NCBI GenBank assembly: GCA_048939995.1 | Contig: JBHLOY010000011.1 | Coordinates: 1-64,000 of the forward strand | Length of the DNA: 64,000 nt | Origin: Promethearchaeota archaeon | GTDB lineage: Archaea; Asgardarchaeota; Lokiarchaeia; Sigyniarchaeales; SOKP01 | Direction of reading: 5' to 3' | Shown: piece by piece, positions 18,123 to 37,583 of the stretch | Layout of the letters: each line of letters starts with the position of its first letter | Position numbering within the stretch: position 1 is the first letter of the stretch | Program-made: the position numbers and the translations under genes | Notes under the pieces: model-generated | The model's input: only the letters and a program-made list of their open reading frames with translations | The model's database searches: none | What the model was told of the DNA's origin: nothing

Positions 18123-19790
18123 ATGATTAAAAAATCTTTAATTGTGATGGTTGGTATTTTGATTTTTTCCTCAGGAATTATCGTACCAACGATTACAACA
18201 ATAAACATTCATAATGAAAGTGAATGCGAGAACTGCACTCATGAAAATGACAATGATCTTCAATCTTCATATCCTATTTGCATGTGTGGTCATCCTACTT
18301 GCTCTGGAAATATATATACCTGCCCCTGTTGCGGATATCCTCCACCACCTCCACCACAATCTCCACCCCCACCTACTTTATATGATATACCTTCACCTAA
18401 TGATAATGGAATTATAAAACTAGATTGGACTTCATCGTCTGGGGCAACGTCTTACAAGATTTATAGGAGCGACGCAGAATTTGGAACCTATACTCTAATT
18501 GCGACAATTTCCTCTTTATCTTATACAGATACAATTACACCAGGAATCTACTGGTATTATGTTAGAGCTCATAATTATATTGGAGATTCTGGTCCTTCAA
18601 ATAGAGAAGGCGTTGAGGTATATCAACCACCAGAGCCAATTATACTACATGGTAGTACACAGAGATTCTTTCCTCATATGAACACAGCAAAACTAGGATT
18701 TACAATATATACTGAGTTTGCTTATAGTCCAAAGATTGATTTAGTAGTTACAGAAACAGCAACATGTTCCTACAATGTGAATCTGAAAGTGAAAATTGAT
18801 AACACCCTTGTTTTTGATGTGAGCAGGAATTTTTACTCAACAGAAGAATTCTTTAACATAGATGGATCTTTACTTCAATCTGTAGGAACACATCAGATTC
18901 TCATTGAACTAACGAATGGAGATGGTCCAAATGATATATATCGCTTGGAATATCTGAAAATCAAGAACCTTCATTTTAAAAATAGTGAATCTTATGCAAA
19001 TAATCGCTACTCACCAGCTCAGATTTGGCAATATGATTCACAATATGACAATGTAGTAGTGACATTTGGTGACGATGTTCCCTTTTTAAATGATGACTTT
19101 AGAACTGATGATGTTCAAGGAATTGAGTTTTGGCCCTCGATAACAATTCAAATAGATCCTGATTTAGATGGGAAGGTTATAGGAATTGGACCCTTCTTAA
19201 AACCAATCGTTATTAACGAATGGGAATACTACATTCATAACTATAAGATTGATTGGAAGGTTATTGATAAAAATGGGAACTATTTGACATCCTCCTCGGC
19301 TGAATTCAATAAATTAAATAATTATGGTTGTCAAATAGGAGTTAGCGATGGAAACCGAGCTGAAAATTATGAGGCAATAGAATTCTTACTAAGATGTTTA
19401 GAGACAGCTTTTATTATTGGAACAGCTATTTATGAACTTGCCCCATATATAACGATTCCAATAGATTTGTTTTTAACATGGTTACAGTTTGGTTCTGATC
19501 CACCGAGATCAAGTCAAAATTTTATTGATGATAGAACCTATCAAGTTGCATGGACTAATGGTATTGAAGGATCTGGACCATGGACTTGGCCTACCCTTAA
19601 ACTAGAAAGTGCTAGTATGCTCGCTGAATGGGATTTTGAATTTTTTGATACAGGACAGTATCAAATACAGTATCATTGGACTTTAACTACGCGCAAATTC
19701 AGATCGTGGAAAATCTTTCCATATTATCAGGAGACATTGCCCGGGTTTACCCTAGAAGGAGATTATTACGTGAATTTTGAATTTTATTAA
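18123..19790 (+). CDS. Secreted/surface protein with Cys-rich N-terminus, polyproline linker and fibronectin type III domain
   Basis: Signal peptide; CENC, CMCGHPTC, CPCC; PPPPPQSPPPP; LDWTSSSGATSYKIYRS...YWYYVRAHN...SGPSN FN3 pattern. Confidence 0.82.
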   Translation: MIKKSLIVMVGILIFSSGIIVPTITTINIHNESECENCTHENDNDLQSSYPICMCGHPTCSGNIYTCPCCGYPPPPPPQSPPPPTLYDIPSPNDNGIIKLDWTSSSGATSYKIYRSDAEFGTYTLIATISSLSYTDTITPGIYWYYVRAHNYIGDSGPSNREGVEVYQPPEPIILHGSTQRFFPHMNTAKLGFTIYTEFAYSPKIDLVVTETATCSYNVNLKVKIDNTLVFDVSRNFYSTEEFFNIDGSLLQSVGTHQILIELTNGDGPNDIYRLEYLKIKNLHFKNSESYANNRYSPAQIWQYDSQYDNVVVTFGDDVPFLNDDFRTDDVQGIEFWPSITIQIDPDLDGKVIGIGPFLKPIVINEWEYYIHNYKIDWKVIDKNGNYLTSSSAEFNKLNNYGCQIGVSDGNRAENYEAIEFLLRCLETAFIIGTAIYELAPYITIPIDLFLTWLQFGSDPPRSSQNFIDDRTYQVAWTNGIEGSGPWTWPTLKLESASMLAEWDFEFFDTGQYQIQYHWTLTTRKFRSWKIFPYYQETLPGFTLEGDYYVNFEFY

Positions 19791-20010: not shown

Positions 20011-21768
20011 ATGTCAAATAAAATTGGAGAGGAAGATGGATTAAGACAAAAGGTATGGAAAATCATCAATTTAATACAAGCAAATCAAATATTTGTACAT
20101 TCTAAGCATCTCGAAATCAAATATGCTGATGAAGAGAGTGAAGAAGTTAAGACTAAAGTTTTACCTGAAATATTATCTCTATGTGTACTAAACGCGTTAG
20201 TACCTAATTCAGCAATGTTATTAATAGGAGGCCATGGAGGAGGTAAAACAACACTAGTAAAGCTTCTAGGTCGAATGTTTACCGGTATGCCACTAACTGA
20301 TATTGAAAATTCTATTGTAAGGGGCCATAGTGAATCGATCTTAACGGTTAACGGCTAACCACAACTTACAGAAGAAAAATTAGTTGGCACGTTAAAGTTA
20401 GGTAAATTAATGCACGACGGGGAAGAGGAGGTTGTCTGGAGACAATTTGTCACAAGCTTCTGGAAAATCATTGATGAGGTTAATAGATTAACCCCTTATT
20501 CCCAAGATATCTTATTGTCACTTCTTGCTGAAGGAACCATTAAATATTATGATGAAATAACCAACATTCAGAAATATTGCCTTTATGCTACTATTAATCC
20601 TCAGGATGTGGGTACATTTGAATTAAGCGAACCTTTCTTAGACAGATATGGGATATCAGCCCCTATTTCGATGCCAAGTAGCTCTGATTTAGAGTTAATT
20701 TTAAAAGGAAAAGATGAAAAATATAGTGGGTGGGACGAATTAATTCAAGTTCCTAGAGTGTTAACAATTGATGAGTTAATGGAAATCTGGTATTATGTCA
20801 ATAGAATACCCTTTCAAAGTGATGTTAATAATTATATTCATGCGATTGTACGAGAATTTACTCTATGTGATCGGATTGATAAAGGAAGTTCAGAAAATCT
20901 CAAGCCAAGTAAGGGATTATGCTCTGGGTGTCATTTTGATACAACACAGAATATTTGTAATAAGATAGATTCCATTTTAAGTGTTAGAGTTGCGAAGGAT
21001 TTACTAAGATATTCTAAAGCTTTAACTTGGTTAATGAGTTTAAGTAAAATTGACGTCAACATTGTAAATACAGTTGCTCCATTTGTAATTTCACATAGGG
21101 TTCTTTATTCTAGTAGGGAACTAGACAAAGCTCCTTATTGGGGCAATAAATACGAATTTTCAAAAGCTAATCTTAGTCAAATCCAAAAAAGGTTTATAAA
21201 TAGAGCGGTTTGTTACGAAATTACAAAAAAGTTTAGAGATGGAATTGGTATACCTGAAGATTTCTCAACTTTAAAAAATTATAAAAAAAATGATTTAATA
21301 GTAAAATATGATTTAATCCCCTTCGTCAATTCTGTTAAAGATAAAAATTACTCCGGTTTAGCTCAAAAAATACTAAGTGCTGCAAAAAAAGGTGACATTA
21401 AACAATTAGCTGATTTGCGAAATTATCTTATTGAAGATATAGATTTTCCAAATCGCGCCTATTTAATAAACTTATGTAACCAAGAGCTTTATAAACAAAC
21501 AGTTACGGATTATGTCTTCAAATATCTACATAAAGATGAGGTATGGGCGGACATTGCTAGTGAATTTCCTAATTTAGATAATCCAATTAAGGACGCTTTA
21601 AGTAGAAGGCAGACGAAGCAGATCAGAACTGAGGATATATTAATAGAAATAAATGTTAGTGGAACAAATGATGATTCTTTAGTTAATATTCAGTTATCTG
21701 GAGGGTCAGAAGCAATAAAATTAAGGACAATTTTAGATAATCTCAGTTATATTCAGAAGGAGGAATAA
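20011..21768 (+). CDS. MoxR-type AAA+ ATPase, spliced: join(20011..20328,20359..21768), 575 aa
   Basis: Walker A GGHGGGKT is in the upstream ORF, and Walker B IIDE plus ATINP are in the downstream ORF in the same frame. Removing the 30-nt BHB intron gives ...VRGH|PQLTEEKLVGTL... Confidence 0.9.
20329..20358 (+). other. BHB-type intron in a protein-coding gene (30 nt, ends in in-frame TAA)
   Basis: Central helix GGCC/GGCT, bulges ATA and AAC, inner helix GTGAATCG/CGGTTAAC, outer G-C pair plus TGTAAG/CTTACA. Confidence 0.88.
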
Positions 21769-21784
21769 GTTAAATATCATTTTT

Positions 21785-23476
21785 ATGGTAGATGGAAAAT
21801 TCGGAAAAAAGGAACAGCAACATTTAATTAAATTTGCAAGAATTGCTTGGAATAGGACTCTTAAAGAATATTATTATCCTCCATTAAATGACCCTCATTT
21901 TGTATTTGATTACACTCGTAAAGAAGGTTTCTATATTGATCCGGAACATAGATGGCAAATAACTATGAATTTAGCAAATATACCTCTATTTACTGAACAG
22001 GAAGAATACATAAACTATTTCCATGCGATCTCTCTTCATGAGGTCTCTCATTATCAAATCATCCCCTATGATGGTTTAATCAATGCTAAATTACTAAAAG
22101 CTGCAATGAAGCATGTAAATGGAAATTTTGCTCCAATTGTTGTCAATCTTTTTGCGGATCTAGTTATTGATACCAAATTATATAAAAAGTTTCCCGAACT
22201 AATATATTGGGAACTGAAACAGACATATAACTATATTCAGAATAATTATAAAGATCATTTCAGTAATTTCTCAAAACTTTTATTCCGTACCTATGAATTA
22301 CTTCTAAATATTCAATTATCTGAAACTAATTCAAATTCCACAATTGATGATCTATCTGAGCAAATTGTTAAGATTACGTTAAAAGATTTTGAAGATGAAA
22401 CAACTTGGGAACAAAAAGTCGAAAAAATCTCAAGTGTTTTAAAAACCCTCATTTTAGATACATTCACCCCTAAAGTAGGAGCCGAATATGATAAAAATTC
22501 TAGAAGTAAATCTCCTAACCAACCACGTACAGGGGTAGAGATACCAGAAGATGTTTTAGAAATAATGGATAACCCGTTGGAGATTAAAAGCTCTGACAAA
22601 CTTAAAGAAACAAGTGAAGATGAATTAAGAAAAAAGGCAGAAATTTTCGCTAGGGAAACTCCATACTCTGAATTCGGTGCACCTGCCACTCAAGCCGGTT
22701 TAGTAGTTGATAAAAATCCTTTAGCAACTTGGTATAGAGGTTTAGCTAAAAATTTAATTGAAATAAAAATTTATGAAGAAAAATTTGGAGGAAAAATGCC
22801 CATATATCCAGAGCTATGGCGAATTGGAGAACCAATTGATCAATTAGATATAATACAAACAGTACTTACGAGCCCAGTAATAATTCCAAATATTACGACA
22901 AGAAAATGGTCTAAAGAAGATGGTTTTGGCTATTTATCTGATAAGCAACTTCCCGATTTATTGTTAGTCATAGATTCTTCGGGGTCTATGAATTGGAATT
23001 ATTCCGCAAAGGATCCCAGAGGACAGTATCATACTGCTTTAATTGCTTCGTTTGCTGCTCTCCATTATGCGATTACTAAAGGTATTAAATTTAGCATAAT
23101 TAATTTCTCGAACAGACCAATTACATGTGATTGGACAAAAAATTATCATAATGCAGAAGAAGTCTTATTAAAATACCAAGGTGGAGGGACTCACTTACCA
23201 GTTGAATCAATAGAGAGACAGTGTGATACATCAGAGCGGAATTCTCTAGTTCTTATTATTACTGATTTTGCGATATATAATTGGGCTGCTGCTAAAAAAA
23301 CTTTAATAAAATTGTCAGAAAATGGGCATAAGATTGTAGGCTTTTTTATTGGATCCTCAAAAATACCCCAAAATCGATTCAAAAATCTCCTTGATAAGGT
23401 TAATTTTTATCCTATAAAGAATGAAAAAAAGTTAATTAATTTAGTAATTGAAGAAGTAAAGAAGTTTTATCAATAA
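21785..23476 (+). CDS. VWA-domain partner of the MoxR ATPase with an N-terminal HExxH metallopeptidase-like domain
   Basis: LHEVSH motif, MIDAS IDSSGS, GGT and IITD motifs. Adjacent to the AAA gene on the same strand. Confidence 0.88.
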   Translation: MVDGKFGKKEQQHLIKFARIAWNRTLKEYYYPPLNDPHFVFDYTRKEGFYIDPEHRWQITMNLANIPLFTEQEEYINYFHAISLHEVSHYQIIPYDGLINAKLLKAAMKHVNGNFAPIVVNLFADLVIDTKLYKKFPELIYWELKQTYNYIQNNYKDHFSNFSKLLFRTYELLLNIQLSETNSNSTIDDLSEQIVKITLKDFEDETTWEQKVEKISSVLKTLILDTFTPKVGAEYDKNSRSKSPNQPRTGVEIPEDVLEIMDNPLEIKSSDKLKETSEDELRKKAEIFARETPYSEFGAPATQAGLVVDKNPLATWYRGLAKNLIEIKIYEEKFGGKMPIYPELWRIGEPIDQLDIIQTVLTSPVIIPNITTRKWSKEDGFGYLSDKQLPDLLLVIDSSGSMNWNYSAKDPRGQYHTALIASFAALHYAITKGIKFSIINFSNRPITCDWTKNYHNAEEVLLKYQGGGTHLPVESIERQCDTSERNSLVLIITDFAIYNWAAAKKTLIKLSENGHKIVGFFIGSSKIPQNRFKNLLDKVNFYPIKNEKKLINLVIEEVKKFYQ

Positions 23477-23610
23477 AAAGGGATAATTATAGCGAGATTC
23501 TAAATTCATAATAATTATCTCATTTTACTTTTAAAGATTAAGCTAAAATAAAAATATATTTATAATTTTAATAAGATTTGCTAAAATAGGAGTATTTCTA
23601 GCTATATTTC

Positions 23611-24210
23611 ATGGATTATGTAAAAATTAATAATAAAAAAGTGTTCATCGATAACAGTCACTTATACCTAGAAAGTTTTAATCTTAGTAAAATAACCCAG
23701 ATAAAACGGTTAAAAAAACATTCAAATTTAACTGAATTATATTTAGAAAAAAATAACTTAGTTAATATTGATGGATTGGATAATCTTATCAATTTACGTA
23801 AACTTCATTTAGAATCAAATTCAATTGTTGAAATCAGTGGGTTAGATTCTCTTAAAAATTTAGAGGAGCTAGAATTAAGCGGAAATAATATTACTAAAAT
23901 TAAGAACTTAGATAAGTGTTTAAATTTAAAGGAACTTTTACTAAACAGAAATAAAATTGAGAAGATAGAGGGATTAGAAAAACTTACGAATCTACAACAT
24001 TTAGATCTAAGTCATAATTTTATTGAAAATATCGATGGAATAAAGAATTTGAAGAATCTTAGGTATTTAAATCTCTCAAATAATCAGATTAATAATATCG
24101 ATAACTTAGTTGATCTAATAAATTTAGAAATTTTAGAGATCGAGGGAAACCATATAAATAATTATGATACTCTTAATCACTTAAGAAATTTAAAAAGATT
24201 TAGAAAATAA
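23611..24210 (+). CDS. Leucine-rich repeat protein (SDS22/internalin-like, 22-aa repeats)
   Basis: Repeated LxxLxxLxLxxNxIxxIxGL, e.g. LEKLTNLQHLDLSHNFIENIDG. Confidence 0.92.
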   Translation: MDYVKINNKKVFIDNSHLYLESFNLSKITQIKRLKKHSNLTELYLEKNNLVNIDGLDNLINLRKLHLESNSIVEISGLDSLKNLEELELSGNNITKIKNLDKCLNLKELLLNRNKIEKIEGLEKLTNLQHLDLSHNFIENIDGIKNLKNLRYLNLSNNQINNIDNLVDLINLEILEIEGNHINNYDTLNHLRNLKRFRK

Positions 24211-24213
24211 GGA

Positions 24214-24528
24214 TTACAATTTATTTTTATTTACTTCTCGAAGATATAATTTCATAAAATATCTCTGACTTTCGCAATACATTAATTTTTGTTTCGGATT
24301 TAAGTGGGCACACTTTTTTAATATAGTTTGAATCTCCTCCAGCAAATTAAAATTGTCATTCTTGTTTTTTTCCTTTAAATCATCAAATTCTGAATTTATC
24401 TCATTTTTAATTTCTGAATCAGTAAATAAATCCTTAAGATTGAGAATTTGATCAGTTTCACCTGTCCTTGTACTCATCATAAAGATTACTTCAAAGATGT
24501 TTAAGATAAATATGTGGATATTTTCCAC
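24214..24528 (-). CDS. Hypothetical protein (real start probably the internal ATG near 24480)
   Basis: ORF only. Confidence 0.5.
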   Translation of the reverse strand: MENIHIFILNIFEVIFMMSTRTGETDQILNLKDLFTDSEIKNEINSEFDDLKEKNKNDNFNLLEEIQTILKKCAHLNPKQKLMYCESQRYFMKLYLREVNKNKL

Positions 24529-24617
24529 GTATATATAAAAAACATTAAGGTTCTTCTATTGAAATTAAGTGATATGCAGGTAATACAGTTCAAGTAAATG
24601 GATTTTAATTGATAAGT

Positions 24618-25262
24618 TTAGAAATTTTTTTCAACCCATTCTTCGAACTTTATTTTTCTTAATTGCTCAGCCCAGATTACTTTTAGGTTTGTTTGTGCGG
24701 GTAATAGCTTCTCATTTTGAAGTTGTTCATATAATTTTTCGATTGCTCTTTCAATCACTATTTCATATACAGGAAAGTTTTCTTTCATATTAGCAAAAGA
24801 ATTTTCAATATCCTTTTTTGATTCTTTAATAACATTTATCCATGCTTTTGAAAATTGAATTACATAGTTATTAATTTCAGCTAAATTGTCTAAATTTAAA
24901 ATAGGGAAAGTTAAATGATACCTATCATTCTTTTTTTCGATTAAATTGTACCATTCTAAATTTAATAGATGATTCTTTAATGTTTCTTCTGTCCATTGAT
25001 AATTTACATGACAATTATACTCTTCTCTACTTATAAGTAACGGAGTTGGTGAAAAATTAACGTTATCAAATAGTTCTTTGAAAGATTTTTCTCCACTTGA
25101 AAGTGAAATCAATATTTCTCTCCTAACACGATTTTCTAAAACCCAAGGTATATCCCCTTCATCCCATGGTTTAAGAGAGGCAAAATCAAACCATGGTTCG
25201 ATCTCATCAATATTTATTTTTCCAACAAACCTATAATTATGATATTTTGTATTTTCTTTCAT
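24618..25262 (-). CDS. Winged-helix-like DNA-binding protein
   Basis: RREILISLSSGEKSFKEL...LKNHLLNLEWYNLIEK, an ArsR-like wHTH pattern. Confidence 0.6.
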   Translation of the reverse strand: MKENTKYHNYRFVGKINIDEIEPWFDFASLKPWDEGDIPWVLENRVRREILISLSSGEKSFKELFDNVNFSPTPLLISREEYNCHVNYQWTEETLKNHLLNLEWYNLIEKKNDRYHLTFPILNLDNLAEINNYVIQFSKAWINVIKESKKDIENSFANMKENFPVYEIVIERAIEKLYEQLQNEKLLPAQTNLKVIWAEQLRKIKFEEWVEKNF

Positions 25263-25289
25263 TATTGAATCCTTTTAGTGATAAATGAA

Positions 25290-25808
25290 TCATAAAGTTT
25301 CTAAGATTTTGGGTATTAACAACCAACCTTTTCTTTCATGAATAATCTTTCCATCTCTATCAATTACGAATTGGCCAGGACCCTGTTGTTCCCATCCTTC
25401 ATATTCTCCATGTTGAAATCCTAGCTTCATAGCCTTTTTGAATTTTTCTCTTACTTGTCCTACTGCTTCAGGAGTCATTACACCTAAACCATATTCCGCA
25501 TATAACTCATCTTTAGTAGAAGGAATAACAGGAAAATTAATATGATATTTATCAATGTACTCTTTAGCAACTTTTTCCCCTGATTGAGTTATATATAACA
25601 ATTTAGCTCCTTTTTCCTTTATTTTAGGATAATATTCCAATAAAATATTTAAATCTAATTGACATATCGGACAGCCGAAGTATCTGGAAAAAATTAACAC
25701 TATTTTTTCTTTTCCCTGTATATTAGCTAAGTCAATTAAACCAGCATTAAACGATTCTATTCTAAATAATGGTGCTTTGTCCCCTAAATTAAGACTTCTA
25801 TTACTCAT
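25290..25808 (-). CDS. Peroxiredoxin-like AhpC/TSA (redoxin) protein
   Basis: LGDKAPLF, FSRYFGCPIC and QFVIDRDGKI motifs. Confidence 0.88.
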   Translation of the reverse strand: MSNRSLNLGDKAPLFRIESFNAGLIDLANIQGKEKIVLIFSRYFGCPICQLDLNILLEYYPKIKEKGAKLLYITQSGEKVAKEYIDKYHINFPVIPSTKDELYAEYGLGVMTPEAVGQVREKFKKAMKLGFQHGEYEGWEQQGPGQFVIDRDGKIIHERKGWLLIPKILETL

Positions 25809-25860
25809 AATTGTTCACTTTTATTTTTTTATTAATTATATTTGAATTAACTTTAATTTT

Positions 25861-26820
25861 TTATTCTTTTAGCATAGCTGTGATTAAAACTTCTGTTGCT
25901 TCATCTTCTGTTAAACCTTTAGCCATAAGTTCATCGAGCCATTTTTGAGGAAATCTGCCAAGAGAGGCTTCATGAGATACACTTGAAGTAGGATCTATTG
26001 CCCTAATAAATGGACGCGCTCTACAGATGGAACCCTTACCTAAAACTATCTCATTACACTCGACATGACCATTACAATATGGAGCATTTCCTTCAGTCAC
26101 ACCATACATTAATACTTCTCCTCCATCTCGGGCTGCTGCTTTCATTTTGATTAAACTACGTGCATTCTCTCCTTCCAAAAATATTGAATCTCTAATTCTG
26201 ATGGAATCTTTTCTATTCCTTCCATAAGCTTTTATCGTTGAACGGATTACACTATTCTTCATAGCATAGATATCTAACATAATTTTCACTATTCCTGGTG
26301 TTCCTTGAGTTAAATTAAAGTTATTCTCAAAGATACTATTTTCTCCAACATACATATAACCTACTGGTGCAACAAATGCACCAGAGTTTTCACCATGATA
26401 ATGAGTCTCACTATAAGTGAAGTTACAATTCTTTCCAATATAGAAATGACCAAACATTTTATGAATAAGCCCATTGGCTCTTGGAAAAGAACAATGAGCC
26501 TGTATCTTAACATCTGTATTATTTTCAGCAATAATTCTTGGAAAGATTTCTTGGACCCCAGTTTCTTTATTTACTCCAAAACATAAATGAATTGGCTCTT
26601 CATGTTTAGTTCCTTCTTTAATTATTACATCAGCTACTATTCCGTTGGCGATTTCATGTCCTTTTAAAATAATTCCATCTACTTGTTCTACACCAGTAAT
26701 TTTATTAAAATTTAAAAGCAGTTTAGCACCTTTTCCATGTCCAGGTATAAAATCTTGAATATCAATATTATAATCTTCAAGACTTTGTAAAATTTCTTTA
26801 GGATAATCGCTAGTATTCAT
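25861..26820 (-). CDS. sufB: SufB/SufD-family Fe-S scaffold (SmsB-like)
   Basis: PIHLCFG, AHCSFP, GHVECNEI, HEASLG and LMAKGLTEDEA motifs. Overlaps the sufC gene. Confidence 0.88.
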   Translation of the reverse strand: MNTSDYPKEILQSLEDYNIDIQDFIPGHGKGAKLLLNFNKITGVEQVDGIILKGHEIANGIVADVIIKEGTKHEEPIHLCFGVNKETGVQEIFPRIIAENNTDVKIQAHCSFPRANGLIHKMFGHFYIGKNCNFTYSETHYHGENSGAFVAPVGYMYVGENSIFENNFNLTQGTPGIVKIMLDIYAMKNSVIRSTIKAYGRNRKDSIRIRDSIFLEGENARSLIKMKAAARDGGEVLMYGVTEGNAPYCNGHVECNEIVLGKGSICRARPFIRAIDPTSSVSHEASLGRFPQKWLDELMAKGLTEDEATEVLITAMLKE

Positions 26821-27620
26821 GATAATCCCTCCTCTTTGAAGATTTTATCGATATATTCGTCATCAAAACATTTTCCACCGTTTTTAAATAGATTTCTTTT
26901 ACACCATTCTTTTAAACCAGCTTTAGCACAATACTTTAGCATAACATTAGGGAATTCATCAGTTAGCAATGCATCTCCTCGCCATAAAAGAGTTCCATAA
27001 TCAGCGACCATCCCAATCTCTTCGCGATGGGTGATAAGTAATATTGTAATATTTAAGGCTTTTATCTTATTGAATATATTTAAAAAATCCTCAACAATTA
27101 TAACATCAAGTCCACTATCTGGTTCATCTAAAATCAGTAATCTTGGCTTCATTGCTATTGCTGCTGCTAATTCAACTCTTTTTCTTTCTCCTCCGCTCAA
27201 TGTTTCATCAATTATTCGATTATAGTAGCGTTCGGGCTCTAAATTTACCATATTAAGCGCTATTGAAATTTGTTCTTTCAAGTTATTCTTATCCTTTATG
27301 CCTAATGAAATATATTTAGAAACCGATAACCCATCTATACGAGCTGGTTCTTGCCAGGTTAAAGTAATACCTAATTTCGCCCGTTCTGTTATACTGCTAT
27401 TTGTGATATCAATTCCATCAAAATATATTTTTCCTTGAGAGAGTTTATATGAATTTAATCCCATTATGGTATATGCTAGTGTTGATTTACCTGAGCCGTT
27501 AGGTCCAATCACGGCATGTATAGATCCCTCTCTTACTCCAAAAGATACATTATTAACGATTACACATTTTTGATCAAAAGTGGGGATTGTAACATTCTCA
27601 AGTTTTAAGAGCGTTTTCAT
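26817..27620 (-). CDS. sufC: SufC-like ABC ATPase (SmsC-like)
   Basis: GPNGSGKSTLAYTIMG, LSGGERKR and ILDEPDSGLD motifs, plus C-terminal Cys residues. Confidence 0.9.
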   Translation of the reverse strand: MKTLLKLENVTIPTFDQKCVIVNNVSFGVREGSIHAVIGPNGSGKSTLAYTIMGLNSYKLSQGKIYFDGIDITNSSITERAKLGITLTWQEPARIDGLSVSKYISLGIKDKNNLKEQISIALNMVNLEPERYYNRIIDETLSGGERKRVELAAAIAMKPRLLILDEPDSGLDVIIVEDFLNIFNKIKALNITILLITHREEIGMVADYGTLLWRGDALLTDEFPNVMLKYCAKAGLKEWCKRNLFKNGGKCFDDEYIDKIFKEEGLS

Positions 27621-27835
27621 ATCTTCTTTGTTTACAAAAGAATAAACATTTCTAATATGTAGTTTATTTATTTATAAAAGATAAAATTTGGTAATTCAAC
27701 GATTAAAAGAAATATAATAGATCAATTTTAATATTATAGGATTAACTAATAAATATAAAAAATAATTTTAGAAATAAACGAAAAACAAAAAAGAGTTGAA
27801 TACTAGCTAAAAAATCTAGAAAAGATGTGATTGCA

Positions 27836-28656
27836 TTGGTAATTAAAGAATATATTTGCGAAATAACTTTCGCAATTCGCGAAGTTTCGTAGAAGGCAAA
27901 AAAAGTAGAATAGTTATAGATGTATCAACTAGGATAAAAGAAGGCTCTACAGCAATATTAGGATTTGCAGGTATCGGTTTGATTGGCCCAATCGTTGCCA
28001 ATACATTAATAGAACAAATTCCGGACATAAAAGAGATTGGTTTTATAACTTCTGAATACTTACCACCTATAAGTGTATTTTATGATGGTGTTTTAAAACA
28101 CCCGTTTAGATTGTATTATTCTCCTCAATATAATATGATTATAGGAATTGCTGAAGTGCCTTTTCAAGTTTCAACAGCATACAATGATCTTAGTAAAACT
28201 ATTAACAATTGGTTGTTATCTGATGATGTTAAAGCAAAAGAAGTGGTAATATTTCAAGGAATTCCACAGAGAGGTATTATTGATGATTATCCTGTGTATT
28301 ATGCTGCTGAAGCAGATATGATTACAAAATTAGAAGGATACGGGCTTACTAAGGTAGAAAAGGGAATCATTGTTGGGCCCGAAGCTACCATTTTAAATGA
28401 AGCTTTAACTAATAAATTGAAAGCTTATAGTCTTTTCACACCTGTTCTGGAAATTCCTACTCCTGAGGCTGCGGCTGCAATAATTGAAGTATTAAATCAA
28501 ATCTATAACTTAAAGATAGAAACTACAAAACTAATTGAAGAAGGCAAAGAAATCAAAGCAAAAATGCTTGAGTTAGCGGAAAAAGCACAACAATTTCAAC
28601 GACAGCAGCAATTACCAGAACAACCAAAAGAAAGATATACTCAATATTTTCAATAA
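27836..28656 (+). CDS. PAC2-family proteasome assembly chaperone, spliced: join(27836..27863,27893..28656), 263 aa
   Basis: GFAGIGLIG, HPFRLY and PTPEAAA PAC2 motifs. A GTGAT SD and TTG at 27836 lie in a different frame that is joined by removing the 29-nt BHB intron (MVIKEYICEKGKKSRIVID...). Confidence 0.85.
27864..27892 (+). other. BHB-type intron in a protein-coding gene (29 nt, ends in in-frame TAG)
   Basis: Central helix GCGA/TCGT, bulges AAT and AGA, inner helix AACTT.CGC/GCGAAGTT, outer helix TTT/AGG. Confidence 0.82.
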
Positions 28657-28792
28657 TTTCTATTTCTTTTTATTTTTTGTATTTTAGGCTCTACTATGTA
28701 ATTCTCTTAAATTTAATAAATCATAAAAGTGAATTTTAAAATTTTTTAATATTTAGTTGAAATATCTTTATAACTATTGAGAATATAGGTAG

Positions 28793-29236
28793 GTTGCTAT
28801 TAAAGAAAGATTTATCCCAGTACAAATCGATCAAGAACTTTGCTTAAGATGCGAAAGATGCTTAAGGGCCTGTAAAGCTAAAGCAATATATTTTGAGCAT
28901 GGTATTAGAAAAGTAAATTATGAAAAATGTAAAGCATGCTTAAATTGTGTGCAAGTGTGCCCTCGAAACGCAATAGAGGTAACTAATGTATTACATCCAG
29001 ACCAAATAGTAAGTATAAAAATTGATCATGAAAAATGTAGTATGTGTGAAACGTGTCTTGATGAAAACGGAAAATTCTGTCCTAAAAATTTGTTTTTTAA
29101 GGGTATTGTTAAAAAAATTGGTAGAGAGGAAGCAGGAATTCGATATAAATTTAAGGAAATTAGAAAATGCCAAGGTTGCTTGAAATGCGAATTATCTTGT
29201 CCAGAAGGAGCAATCCAGCCTGTGAAATTTAAGTAA
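28793..29236 (+). CDS. Polyferredoxin (four 4Fe-4S motifs), non-canonical start (GTT 28793 or ATT 28799)
   Basis: The frame upstream of the called GTG 28949 encodes CLRCERCLRAC and CKACLNC(VQVCP). Downstream are CSMCETC..FCP and CQGCLKCELSCP. In-frame TAG at 28790. Confidence 0.88.
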   Translation, partial: VAIKERFIPVQIDQELCLRCERCLRACKAKAIYFEHGIRKVNYEKCKACLNCVQVCPRNAIEVTNVLHPDQIVSIKIDHEKCSMCETCLDENGKFCPKNLFFKGIVKKIGREEAGIRYKFKEIRKCQGCLKCELSCPEGAIQPVKFK

Positions 29237-36965: not shown

Positions 36966-37583
36966 ATGGTATTTAAAAGTATTAATCGAATTAAAGCTGC
37001 CTTACCAGAAGTAATTCACATCGCAATGTTCTATAATAATGGAACTATTTTTCAAACTACATTTGGATCTGATATAAATATCCCTAAATTAGGTGAAAAT
37101 CTAGCTGAAGCATTACATCACATGCAAAAAATATATGAATTTTGTAATTTAAAAGCTGAAGAATATAAAAAGCTTATATTTGAAACGGAAGATATGTCTT
37201 CGATAATCTTAAAGCTTGGAGAAGACAGTAATATCGCATTATTTTTTAAAAAAGAAGAAGATAAAGAATTAAGAATAAGTGCTATTAGAAGATATCTAAA
37301 CAAAATTGAAGACATCATGGATATGGATGCAAATGAAATATTATTCCAAGAAATCCTAGTTAAGGAAGAAGAATTAAAAAAGTTAAATAATGATCTGCAA
37401 AAAAATCAAGAAGAAATTAATATCTTAAATGAAAAAGTCAAAGATTCTGGAATGTCTCAGGAAAGACAAATGGTTTTAAAGAAAATAAATGAAAACACTG
37501 AGGAATACTTTAAAATTAAGAAGCAGATTGAAGAAGTTAACTCTGAAATTGAAAATCTTAAAAAGGAAATTGTGAATAAATAA
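36966..37583 (+). CDS. Roadblock/LC7-like domain plus C-terminal coiled coil
   Basis: Helix, then IAMFYNNGTIF, helix, then LIFETEDMSSIILKL...IALFF topology, followed by a heptad tail. Confidence 0.65.
   Translation: MVFKSINRIKAALPEVIHIAMFYNNGTIFQTTFGSDINIPKLGENLAEALHHMQKIYEFCNLKAEEYKKLIFETEDMSSIILKLGEDSNIALFFKKEEDKELRISAIRRYLNKIEDIMDMDANEILFQEILVKEEELKKLNNDLQKNQEEINILNEKVKDSGMSQERQMVLKKINENTEEYFKIKKQIEEVNSEIENLKKEIVNK

What the first reader, a model, noticed from the sequence alone, without database searches (positions are those of the whole stretch)
20011..28656. Candidate tRNA-endonuclease (BHB) mRNA-splicing system gating proteostasis genes in an Asgard archaeon
Seen: two unrelated protein-coding genes 7.5 kb apart each carry a ~30-nt insert that folds into a bulge-helix-bulge. 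Cutting after the second nucleotide of each 3-nt bulge restores a continuous ORF in both. Both introns end exactly in a stop codon in the upstream frame (TAA, TAG), so the unspliced message gives only a truncated product from the natural start. Established: archaeal EndA cuts BHB motifs and RtcB ligates the exons; mRNA introns of this type are best known from crenarchaeal cbf5; eukaryotic HAC1/XBP1 are activated by non-spliceosomal splicing that uses the tRNA ligase. Inference: two such introns in one 64-kb window suggest many genome-wide. Both hosts are protein-quality-control factors (a MoxR AAA+/VWA chaperone and a proteasome assembly chaperone), so splicing could act as an on/off regulatory layer, conceptually similar to unfolded-protein-response splicing.
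Basis: partly seen in the sequence, partly recalled or inferred. Interest (0 to 1): 0.95.

Follow-up and report, generated by a model that had tools for sequence, protein, structure and literature searches.

The report
tRNA-type introns in Asgard protein genes
Two genes of this Asgard archaeon are broken by 29-30-base inserts of the kind normally cut out of tRNAs; they are very probably spliced introns, but at least ten more sit in ordinary housekeeping genes, so this looks like general mRNA splicing and not a switch for protein-quality-control genes.

Summary
Both inserts are real: 20329-20358 (30 nt, MoxR-like ATPase) and 27864-27892 (29 nt, PAC2). Each forms a bulge-helix-bulge (BHB), and cutting at the canonical sites gives the proteins of intron-less relatives (575 and 263 aa). 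Other assemblies carry the same inserts. An intron-less PAC2 allele differs by exactly this 29-nt gap. The genome (Promethearchaeota) encodes two EndA subunits and RtcB. A motif-free comparison of about 1,580 genes found BHBs at 7 of 7 frame-breaking 18-50-nt inserts and 0 of 70 in-frame ones. The proteostasis-gating idea is not supported. The ten other introns I verified lie in EF-1alpha, MetRS, uL11, PurA, DnaG, FwdA and metabolic genes. Core chaperone and proteasome genes are intact. Both window introns are absent from most orthologues and are gained or lost independently. Ending in a stop codon is not general (2 of 10). Best reading: constitutive EndA/RtcB splicing of patchy mini-introns, like cbf5 but in many genes. 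No RNA evidence was obtained here. I found no paper reporting this in Asgard archaea; this scan noted such introns earlier on other DNA.

The parts
20011..20328 (+). MoxR-like AAA+ ATPase, exon 1 (106 codons, Walker A; ends RGH)
   Evidence: orthologues read RGH-PQLTEEK without a break
20329..20358 (+). 30-nt BHB intron, phase 0, ends in in-frame TAA; helix 20323-26/20353-56, bulges 20327-29 and 20357-59
20359..21768 (+). MoxR-like ATPase, exon 2 (469 codons); spliced protein 575 aa
   Evidence: Pfam AAA_3/AAA_5; homologues of 575 aa
21785..23476 (+). VWA-domain protein, probable MoxR partner; no intron found
   Evidence: MIDAS-like DSSGS motif seen; Atlas clusters named VWFA; no Pfam or NCBIfam hit
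23611..27620 (.). Intervening genes, not part of the phenomenon: LRR protein, two unnamed ORFs, AhpC/TSA redoxin, SufBD-core protein, ABC ATPase
27827..27863 (+). PAC2 ribosome-binding-like GTGAT (27827-31), start TTG 27836 and exon 1 (9 codons + 1 nt)
   Evidence: ATG at the same place in L276 and L280; intron-less orthologues start MVIKEY(I/V)CE
27864..27892 (+). 29-nt frame-shifting BHB intron, ends in TAG in the exon-1 frame; helix 27858-61/27887-90, bulges 27862-64 and 27891-93
27893..28656 (+). PAC2-family proteasome assembly chaperone, exon 2; spliced protein 263 aa
   Evidence: PF09754 E 1.8e-30
27856..27858 (+). Alternative TTG that opens a 266-aa frame through the unspliced PAC2 intron; used by gene callers; possible leak

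Best explanation
Both inserts are BHB mini-introns in mRNA. The transcript folds a 4-bp helix between two 3-nt bulges (shape shown; cleavage inferred). The two-subunit EndA cuts after the second base of each bulge, RtcB joins the exons, and the intron probably circularises (inferred from archaeal tRNA and cbf5 biochemistry). They are two of a dozen or more such introns in conserved genes of all functions. They come and go between lineages with precise boundaries (shown) and persist because splicing makes them nearly harmless (inferred). Splicing is a housekeeping step, not a switch dedicated to proteostasis.
For: Excision restores the exact orthologue junction and length. The empty PAC2 allele L278 differs from intron-bearing L280 by one 29-nt gap whose ends are the BHB cut sites and cannot slide. 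7/7 frame-breaking against 0/70 in-frame 18-50-nt inserts have a BHB at the homology-optimal boundary, Fisher p 4e-10. All 8 distinct inserts in MoxR orthologues are 30 nt with 4/4 helix pairs, at three sites. Four diverged copies at this site keep the central helix 100% paired, with three intron-stem pairs changed on both sides. EndA alpha- and beta-like genes and RtcB are present. Hosts include single-copy EF-1alpha and MetRS, and uL11.
Against: No spliced transcript, junction read or cleavage assay was obtained. The JGI junction scan gave one intron-less 10-kb contig only. The PAC2 BHB competes with a fold about 4 kcal/mol more stable in ViennaRNA. Covariation rests on four sequences and is not significant against shuffles (20-131 of 500 reach it). 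The census covers under half the genes.
Confidence: 0.8

Rival explanations
1. Stress-gated splicing switches on proteostasis genes, like HAC1/XBP1 in the unfolded-protein response.
For: Both window hosts can be called chaperone-like. Two of 12 hosts would have p about 0.02-0.12 if 2-5% of genes are quality-control genes (assumed shares). Unspliced products from the natural starts are truncated. A negative-regulator role was proposed for the cbf5 intron (PMC2738675).
Against: The pair is the ascertainment set. 0 of 16 independently found hosts are quality-control genes (this alone is also what no enrichment predicts). Core quality-control genes are intact. The introns are absent from most orthologues, the closest included, and do not co-occur in L067. 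HAC1/XBP1 use the stress sensor IRE1 on a transcription-factor mRNA (PMC13149111); EndA must also serve the intron-bearing tRNAs (15 of 24 detected). MoxR/VWA pairs are described as client-specific maturation factors (PMC3893208, PMC9976466).
Confidence: 0.05
2. The inserts are neutralised another way: ribosomal bypassing of the hairpin, precise excision at DNA level in part of the population, or for PAC2 initiation at TTG 27856 without splicing.
For: Strong hairpins; an open 266-aa PAC2 frame through the insert that still holds the whole Pfam domain; precise empty alleles exist.
Against: Boundaries match EndA cut geometry in every case across phases 0, 1 and 2. No matching take-off and landing codons. 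No mobile-element gene nearby and no second copy of either insert in the genome. Exon 1 of PAC2 stays conserved as coding sequence in intron-bearing relatives.
Confidence: 0.07
3. The interrupted genes are recent pseudogenes, and the BHB shape is a relic of how the inserts arrived.
For: MoxR/VWA is not found in many same-family genomes, so it may be dispensable; no expression data.
Against: Exons are otherwise intact. The same class of insert breaks the only EF-1alpha and MetRS genes. The introns persist in lineages with 75-95% protein identity while the exons stay open.
Confidence: 0.04
4. Assembly artefacts.
For: Metagenome-assembled genome, 5.3% contamination.
Against: The MoxR insert is identical in four other assemblies (two NCBI, two Logan). 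The PAC2 insert is in NCBI, JGI and Logan assemblies with point variants.
Confidence: 0.01

Closest known systems
cbf5 pre-mRNA BHB intron of Desulfurococcales and Sulfolobales (Watanabe 2002; Yokobori 2009, PMC2738675)
   Same: Short (16-44 nt there; 21-37 nt here), no ORF, cut between bulge bases 2 and 3, in a coding sequence, lineage-specific loss, hetero-oligomeric EndA.
   Different: One gene and one ancestral site there, with cDNA proof. Here at least 12 unrelated genes in one genome, a different set in a relative, several sites per gene family, no RNA proof yet.
BHB intron in the 5' UTR of Haloferax HVO_1309 (PMC7714728)
   Same: EndA substrate in an mRNA; 46 nt; found as a circle and cut in vitro.
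   Different: Untranslated region; it does not break a reading frame.
Abundant tRNA introns of Asgard archaea (PMC11291895; bioRxiv 10.64898/2026.10.13.758758)
   Same: BHB boundaries, repeated gains, two EndA paralogues, unknown route of arrival.
   Different: tRNA genes only; text searches of both papers showed no mRNA introns.
IRE1-mediated HAC1/XBP1 splicing (PMC13149111)
   Same: Spliceosome-free cut and ligation of a short, frame-changing intron by a tRNA-type ligase.
   Different: A stress-activated nuclease, stem-loop sites, a dedicated transcription-factor target and deep conservation; none is shown here.

Membership tests
Archaeal BHB (EndA-type) intron | 4-bp central helix between two 3-nt bulges, with an intron stem | tested here: met
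   exon-side helix short, so canonical to slightly relaxed
Archaeal BHB (EndA-type) intron | Cuts after bulge base 2 coincide with the boundaries set independently by intron-less homologues | tested here: met
Archaeal BHB (EndA-type) intron | Structure conserved while sequence changes | tested here: inconclusive
   MoxR: 87.5% of cells paired, 3 pairs changed on both sides, but only 4 rows and not beyond shuffles. PAC2 copies vary mainly in the loop.
Archaeal BHB (EndA-type) intron | EndA with catalytic Tyr/His/Lys and an RNA ligase in the genome | tested here: met
   Two PF01974 genes; by eye one has the three residues and one lacks the His; RtcB E 7e-168
Archaeal BHB (EndA-type) intron | Spliced RNA or cleavage by EndA shown | not testable with these tools
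   No reads available; the indirect contig search gave nothing
UPR-type regulated splicing (HAC1/XBP1) | Targets restricted to stress or proteostasis regulators | tested here: not met
   Hosts include EF-1alpha, MetRS, uL11, PurA, DnaG, FwdA and metabolic enzymes
UPR-type regulated splicing (HAC1/XBP1) | Intron conserved across the lineage | tested here: not met
   4 of 85 MoxR loci; 0 of 29 same-genus PAC2 loci
UPR-type regulated splicing (HAC1/XBP1) | Splicing induced by stress through a dedicated sensor nuclease | not testable with these tools
   Needs RNA data; a search for an IRE1-like nuclease was not run
Group I / group II self-splicing or homing introns | Ribozyme core or intron-encoded ORF | tested here: not met
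   29-30 nt; no Rfam match in the window
MoxR AAA+/VWA pair | AAA_3/AAA_5 ATPase next to a VWA gene | tested here: met
   a role in protein quality control was not tested
PAC2 proteasome assembly chaperone family | PF09754 above the curated cut-off | tested here: met
   106.8 bits against 25.8

The most novel reading that the evidence does not exclude
mRNA splicing by the tRNA machinery is not only widespread in this Asgard class but condition-dependent: EndA capacity or competing RNA folds (as at PAC2) throttle a set of genes that includes translation factors and chaperones, giving an archaeal forerunner of regulated, spliceosome-free mRNA splicing.
Probability: 0.12. Interest if true: 0.92.

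Novelty: new variant of a known kind. Interest (0 to 1): 0.7.

Why it matters
The papers I could search confirm a BHB intron inside an archaeal coding sequence for one gene only, cbf5 (PMC2738675, PMC7714728). A dozen such introns in one Asgard genome, in EF-1alpha, MetRS and uL11 among others, would make the tRNA-splicing enzymes a general mRNA-processing step in close relatives of eukaryotes. It also means Asgard annotations hold falsely truncated or falsely started proteins, as for both window genes. Exact empty and filled alleles between close relatives make intron gain and loss directly testable.

Tried and rejected
Reference-free BHB plus ORF-join scan: no better than decoys except at the top scores, so not used for counting. 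Junction pattern in JGI contigs: one intron-less 10-kb contig, taken as a relative's DNA and not as splicing. Cluster look-up: no spliced full-length version of either window protein. Short Logan contigs with intron-less PAC2 were rejected as RNA evidence: L278 also holds the divergent upstream gene, and genome G104 has the same empty allele. Terminal stop codon as a design feature: rejected; it follows from a G-U closing pair plus an A-rich bulge and is seen in 2 of 10. Clustering of two introns in 7.5 kb: expected with probability 0.11-0.53 for 8-20 introns. Other cut registers in the PAC2 hairpin (23, 25, 27 nt): rejected by homology. No second copy of either intron in the genome. Rfam and promoter scans: nothing above chance. 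In the MoxR tree L256 was grouped under 'other intron' though it also has the H|P intron, so the printed change count covers three of four carriers. No structure or complex prediction was run; it would not bear on splicing.
Full report
Observation. The window is contig C7 of a 3.75-Mb assembly whose proteins match Promethearchaeota (Lokiarchaeia) records. The MoxR-like gene appears as ORFs 20011-20358 and 20410-21768. Removing 20329-20358 gives one 575-aa ORF. That is the length of most homologues, 112 of 120 of which read GHPQLTEEK straight across the site. The PAC2 gene has a ribosome-binding-like GTGAT and a TTG at 27836 (ATG in relatives L276 and L280). Removing 27864-27892 gives 263 aa starting VIKEYICEKGKKS, the consensus of intron-less homologues. 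Both inserts form a 4-bp helix with two 3-nt bulges, and cuts after the second bulge base give exactly these boundaries.

More than chance. BHB-like shapes are common in this AT-rich genome: 205,563 against 205,275 of reversed polarity. The test is therefore coincidence with boundaries set by homology. With exons fixed, none of 20,000 shuffles of either insert matched the observed motif. Among 1,583 genes, 7 of 7 frame-breaking inserts of 18-50 nt had a BHB at the best-scoring boundary, against 0 of 70 in-frame inserts (Fisher p 4e-10). Three longer 'broken' calls lay in repetitive or antisense matches and had no BHB. A motif-first version recovered these seven plus PAC2; its one decoy hit was a shifted copy of a true intron.

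Not an artefact. The MoxR insert is identical in two NCBI assemblies and two Logan runs. The PAC2 insert occurs with point variants in L062, L067, L069, L071, L276, L277 and L280. Intron-less L278 and intron-bearing L280 align over 801 bases at 91% with a single 29-nt gap, and the flanking bases allow no sliding, so the empty site equals the predicted cut sites.

Evolution. Of 85 MoxR loci, four carry an intron at this H|P site (this genome, L061, L066, L256). They are scattered in the tree beside intron-less sisters; L066 is about 0.04 substitutions per site from intron-less L203. The four share stem positions and look homologous. The central helix is paired in all four and three intron-stem pairs change on both sides, but four rows do not beat the shuffles. 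Other relatives have 30-nt BHB introns at residue 79 (Walker A) or 194. For PAC2, 29 same-genus genomes lack the intron. An intron-less group nests among carriers, and the tree needs 2-3 changes. L070 has a different 31-nt BHB intron two bases downstream. L067 has the PAC2 intron but an intact MoxR. Patchy presence with precise boundaries is shown. Whether it comes from repeated loss or from spread between relatives is not resolved.

Machinery. The genome has two tRNA-endonuclease genes. By eye one has the catalytic Tyr, His and Lys and the other lacks the His, which fits the two-subunit form reported for most Asgard genomes (bioRxiv 10.64898/2026.10.13.758758). RtcB is present. ARAGORN called introns in 15 of 24 detected tRNAs, so the enzymes are needed all the time.

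Test of the proteostasis idea. The census hosts besides the window pair are MetRS, DnaG, FwdA, an AIR-synthase-related protein, a family III CoA-transferase and an acyl-CoA dehydrogenase. Leads from earlier scan notes, checked here against conserved motifs, add uL11 (37 nt) and PurA (30 nt), EF-1alpha (33 nt, restores GKST in the only gene over the TIGR00483 cut-off) and a low-molecular-weight phosphatase (21 nt, helix 4/4 but no intron stem, the weakest case). G091 has six others, at sites not used here: uL11, RNase HII, NAD synthase, a LURP-related protein, a molybdopterin-binding-domain protein and an undecaprenyl-diphosphate synthase, the last with only 3 of 4 helix pairs. None of these 16 is a quality-control gene. 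Thermosome, proteasome alpha and beta, PAN/Cdc48-type ATPases, DnaK and ClpB are uninterrupted ORFs. The first in-frame stop falls on the last intron base only in the two window introns, of ten measured; at the same MoxR site L061 ends in TAT. Two introns within 7.5 kb are not unusual for 8-20 introns per genome. Calling MoxR a quality-control factor is loose: published MoxR/VWA pairs mature specific complexes. Unspliced PAC2 RNA keeps an open frame from TTG 27856 that holds the whole Pfam domain, so it may not even be a clean off state.

Mechanism. Shown: geometry, boundaries, enzyme genes, mixed hosts, patchy distribution. Inferred from archaeal tRNA and cbf5 work (PMC2738675, PMC7714728): EndA cleavage, RtcB ligation, intron circles. 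Inferred from essential hosts: splicing runs during ordinary growth. Not shown: any spliced RNA of this species, and any regulation. The PAC2 hairpin prefers another register in ViennaRNA by about 4 kcal/mol. The program does not model enzyme-stabilised bulges, and the L061 intron shows the same, so I do not read this as a switch.

Comparison and novelty. These work like, and by every feature I could test are, cbf5-type BHB mRNA introns. They fail the tests for UPR-type splicing that could be run. Seven paper searches found no report of such introns in Asgard coding genes (most subscription journals are not covered). The 2009 paper says introns in other genes were predicted but unconfirmed, and the 2020 paper names cbf5 as the only other case. 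This scan has noted the same class on much other DNA, with unchecked claims of RNA support; I treat those as leads only. Verdict: real introns, a new variant of a known kind and of high general interest; the proteostasis-gating claim is not supported. Interest 0.7.

Noticed in passing
G000 C11 - 167313-167345; C6 + 82172-82203; C23 - 129198-129234; C7 - 109897-109926: BHB introns in EF-1alpha (P-loop Lys), MetRS (before HIGH), uL11 and PurA (catalytic Asp region).
   Followed up: yes
G000 C11 - 487217-487250; C17 - 377423-377452; C17 + 23476-23508; C23 - 175418-175447; C38 + 64707-64737; C17 + 37247-37267: BHB introns in DnaG, FwdA, an acyl-CoA dehydrogenase, an AIR-synthase-related protein, a CoA-transferase and (weak) a low-molecular-weight phosphatase.
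   Followed up: yes
L122:9379-9406, L161:19341-19370, L170:19625-19654, L137:1944-1977, L186:10020-10049, L191:5072-5101: Six 28-30-nt BHB inserts in G091; its uL11 intron is at a different site from the one in this genome.
   Followed up: partly
L256, L014/L211, L259, L266: MoxR orthologues with 30-nt introns at residue 194 or at Walker A; L256 has two introns in one gene. The strict 30-nt length of all MoxR introns is unexplained.
   Followed up: partly
L070:3036-3066: A different 31-nt BHB intron two bases from the PAC2 site, suggesting a favoured insertion spot.
   Followed up: partly
window 28790-29236: The ferredoxin gene after PAC2 is 147 aa in relatives (GTG start in L067 and L276), but here the frame opens at GTT right after a TAG and the ORF list gives only 95 aa: a rare start codon or a damaged start.
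   Followed up: partly
window 18123-19790: 555-aa protein with a likely signal peptide, a Cys- and Pro-rich N-terminus and a fibronectin-like stretch, no Pfam hit; present upstream of MoxR in this species but not called at this place in L066 or L067.
   Followed up: no
G000, whole genome: ARAGORN finds only 24 tRNAs, 15 with introns; more are probably hidden by multiple introns.
   Followed up: no
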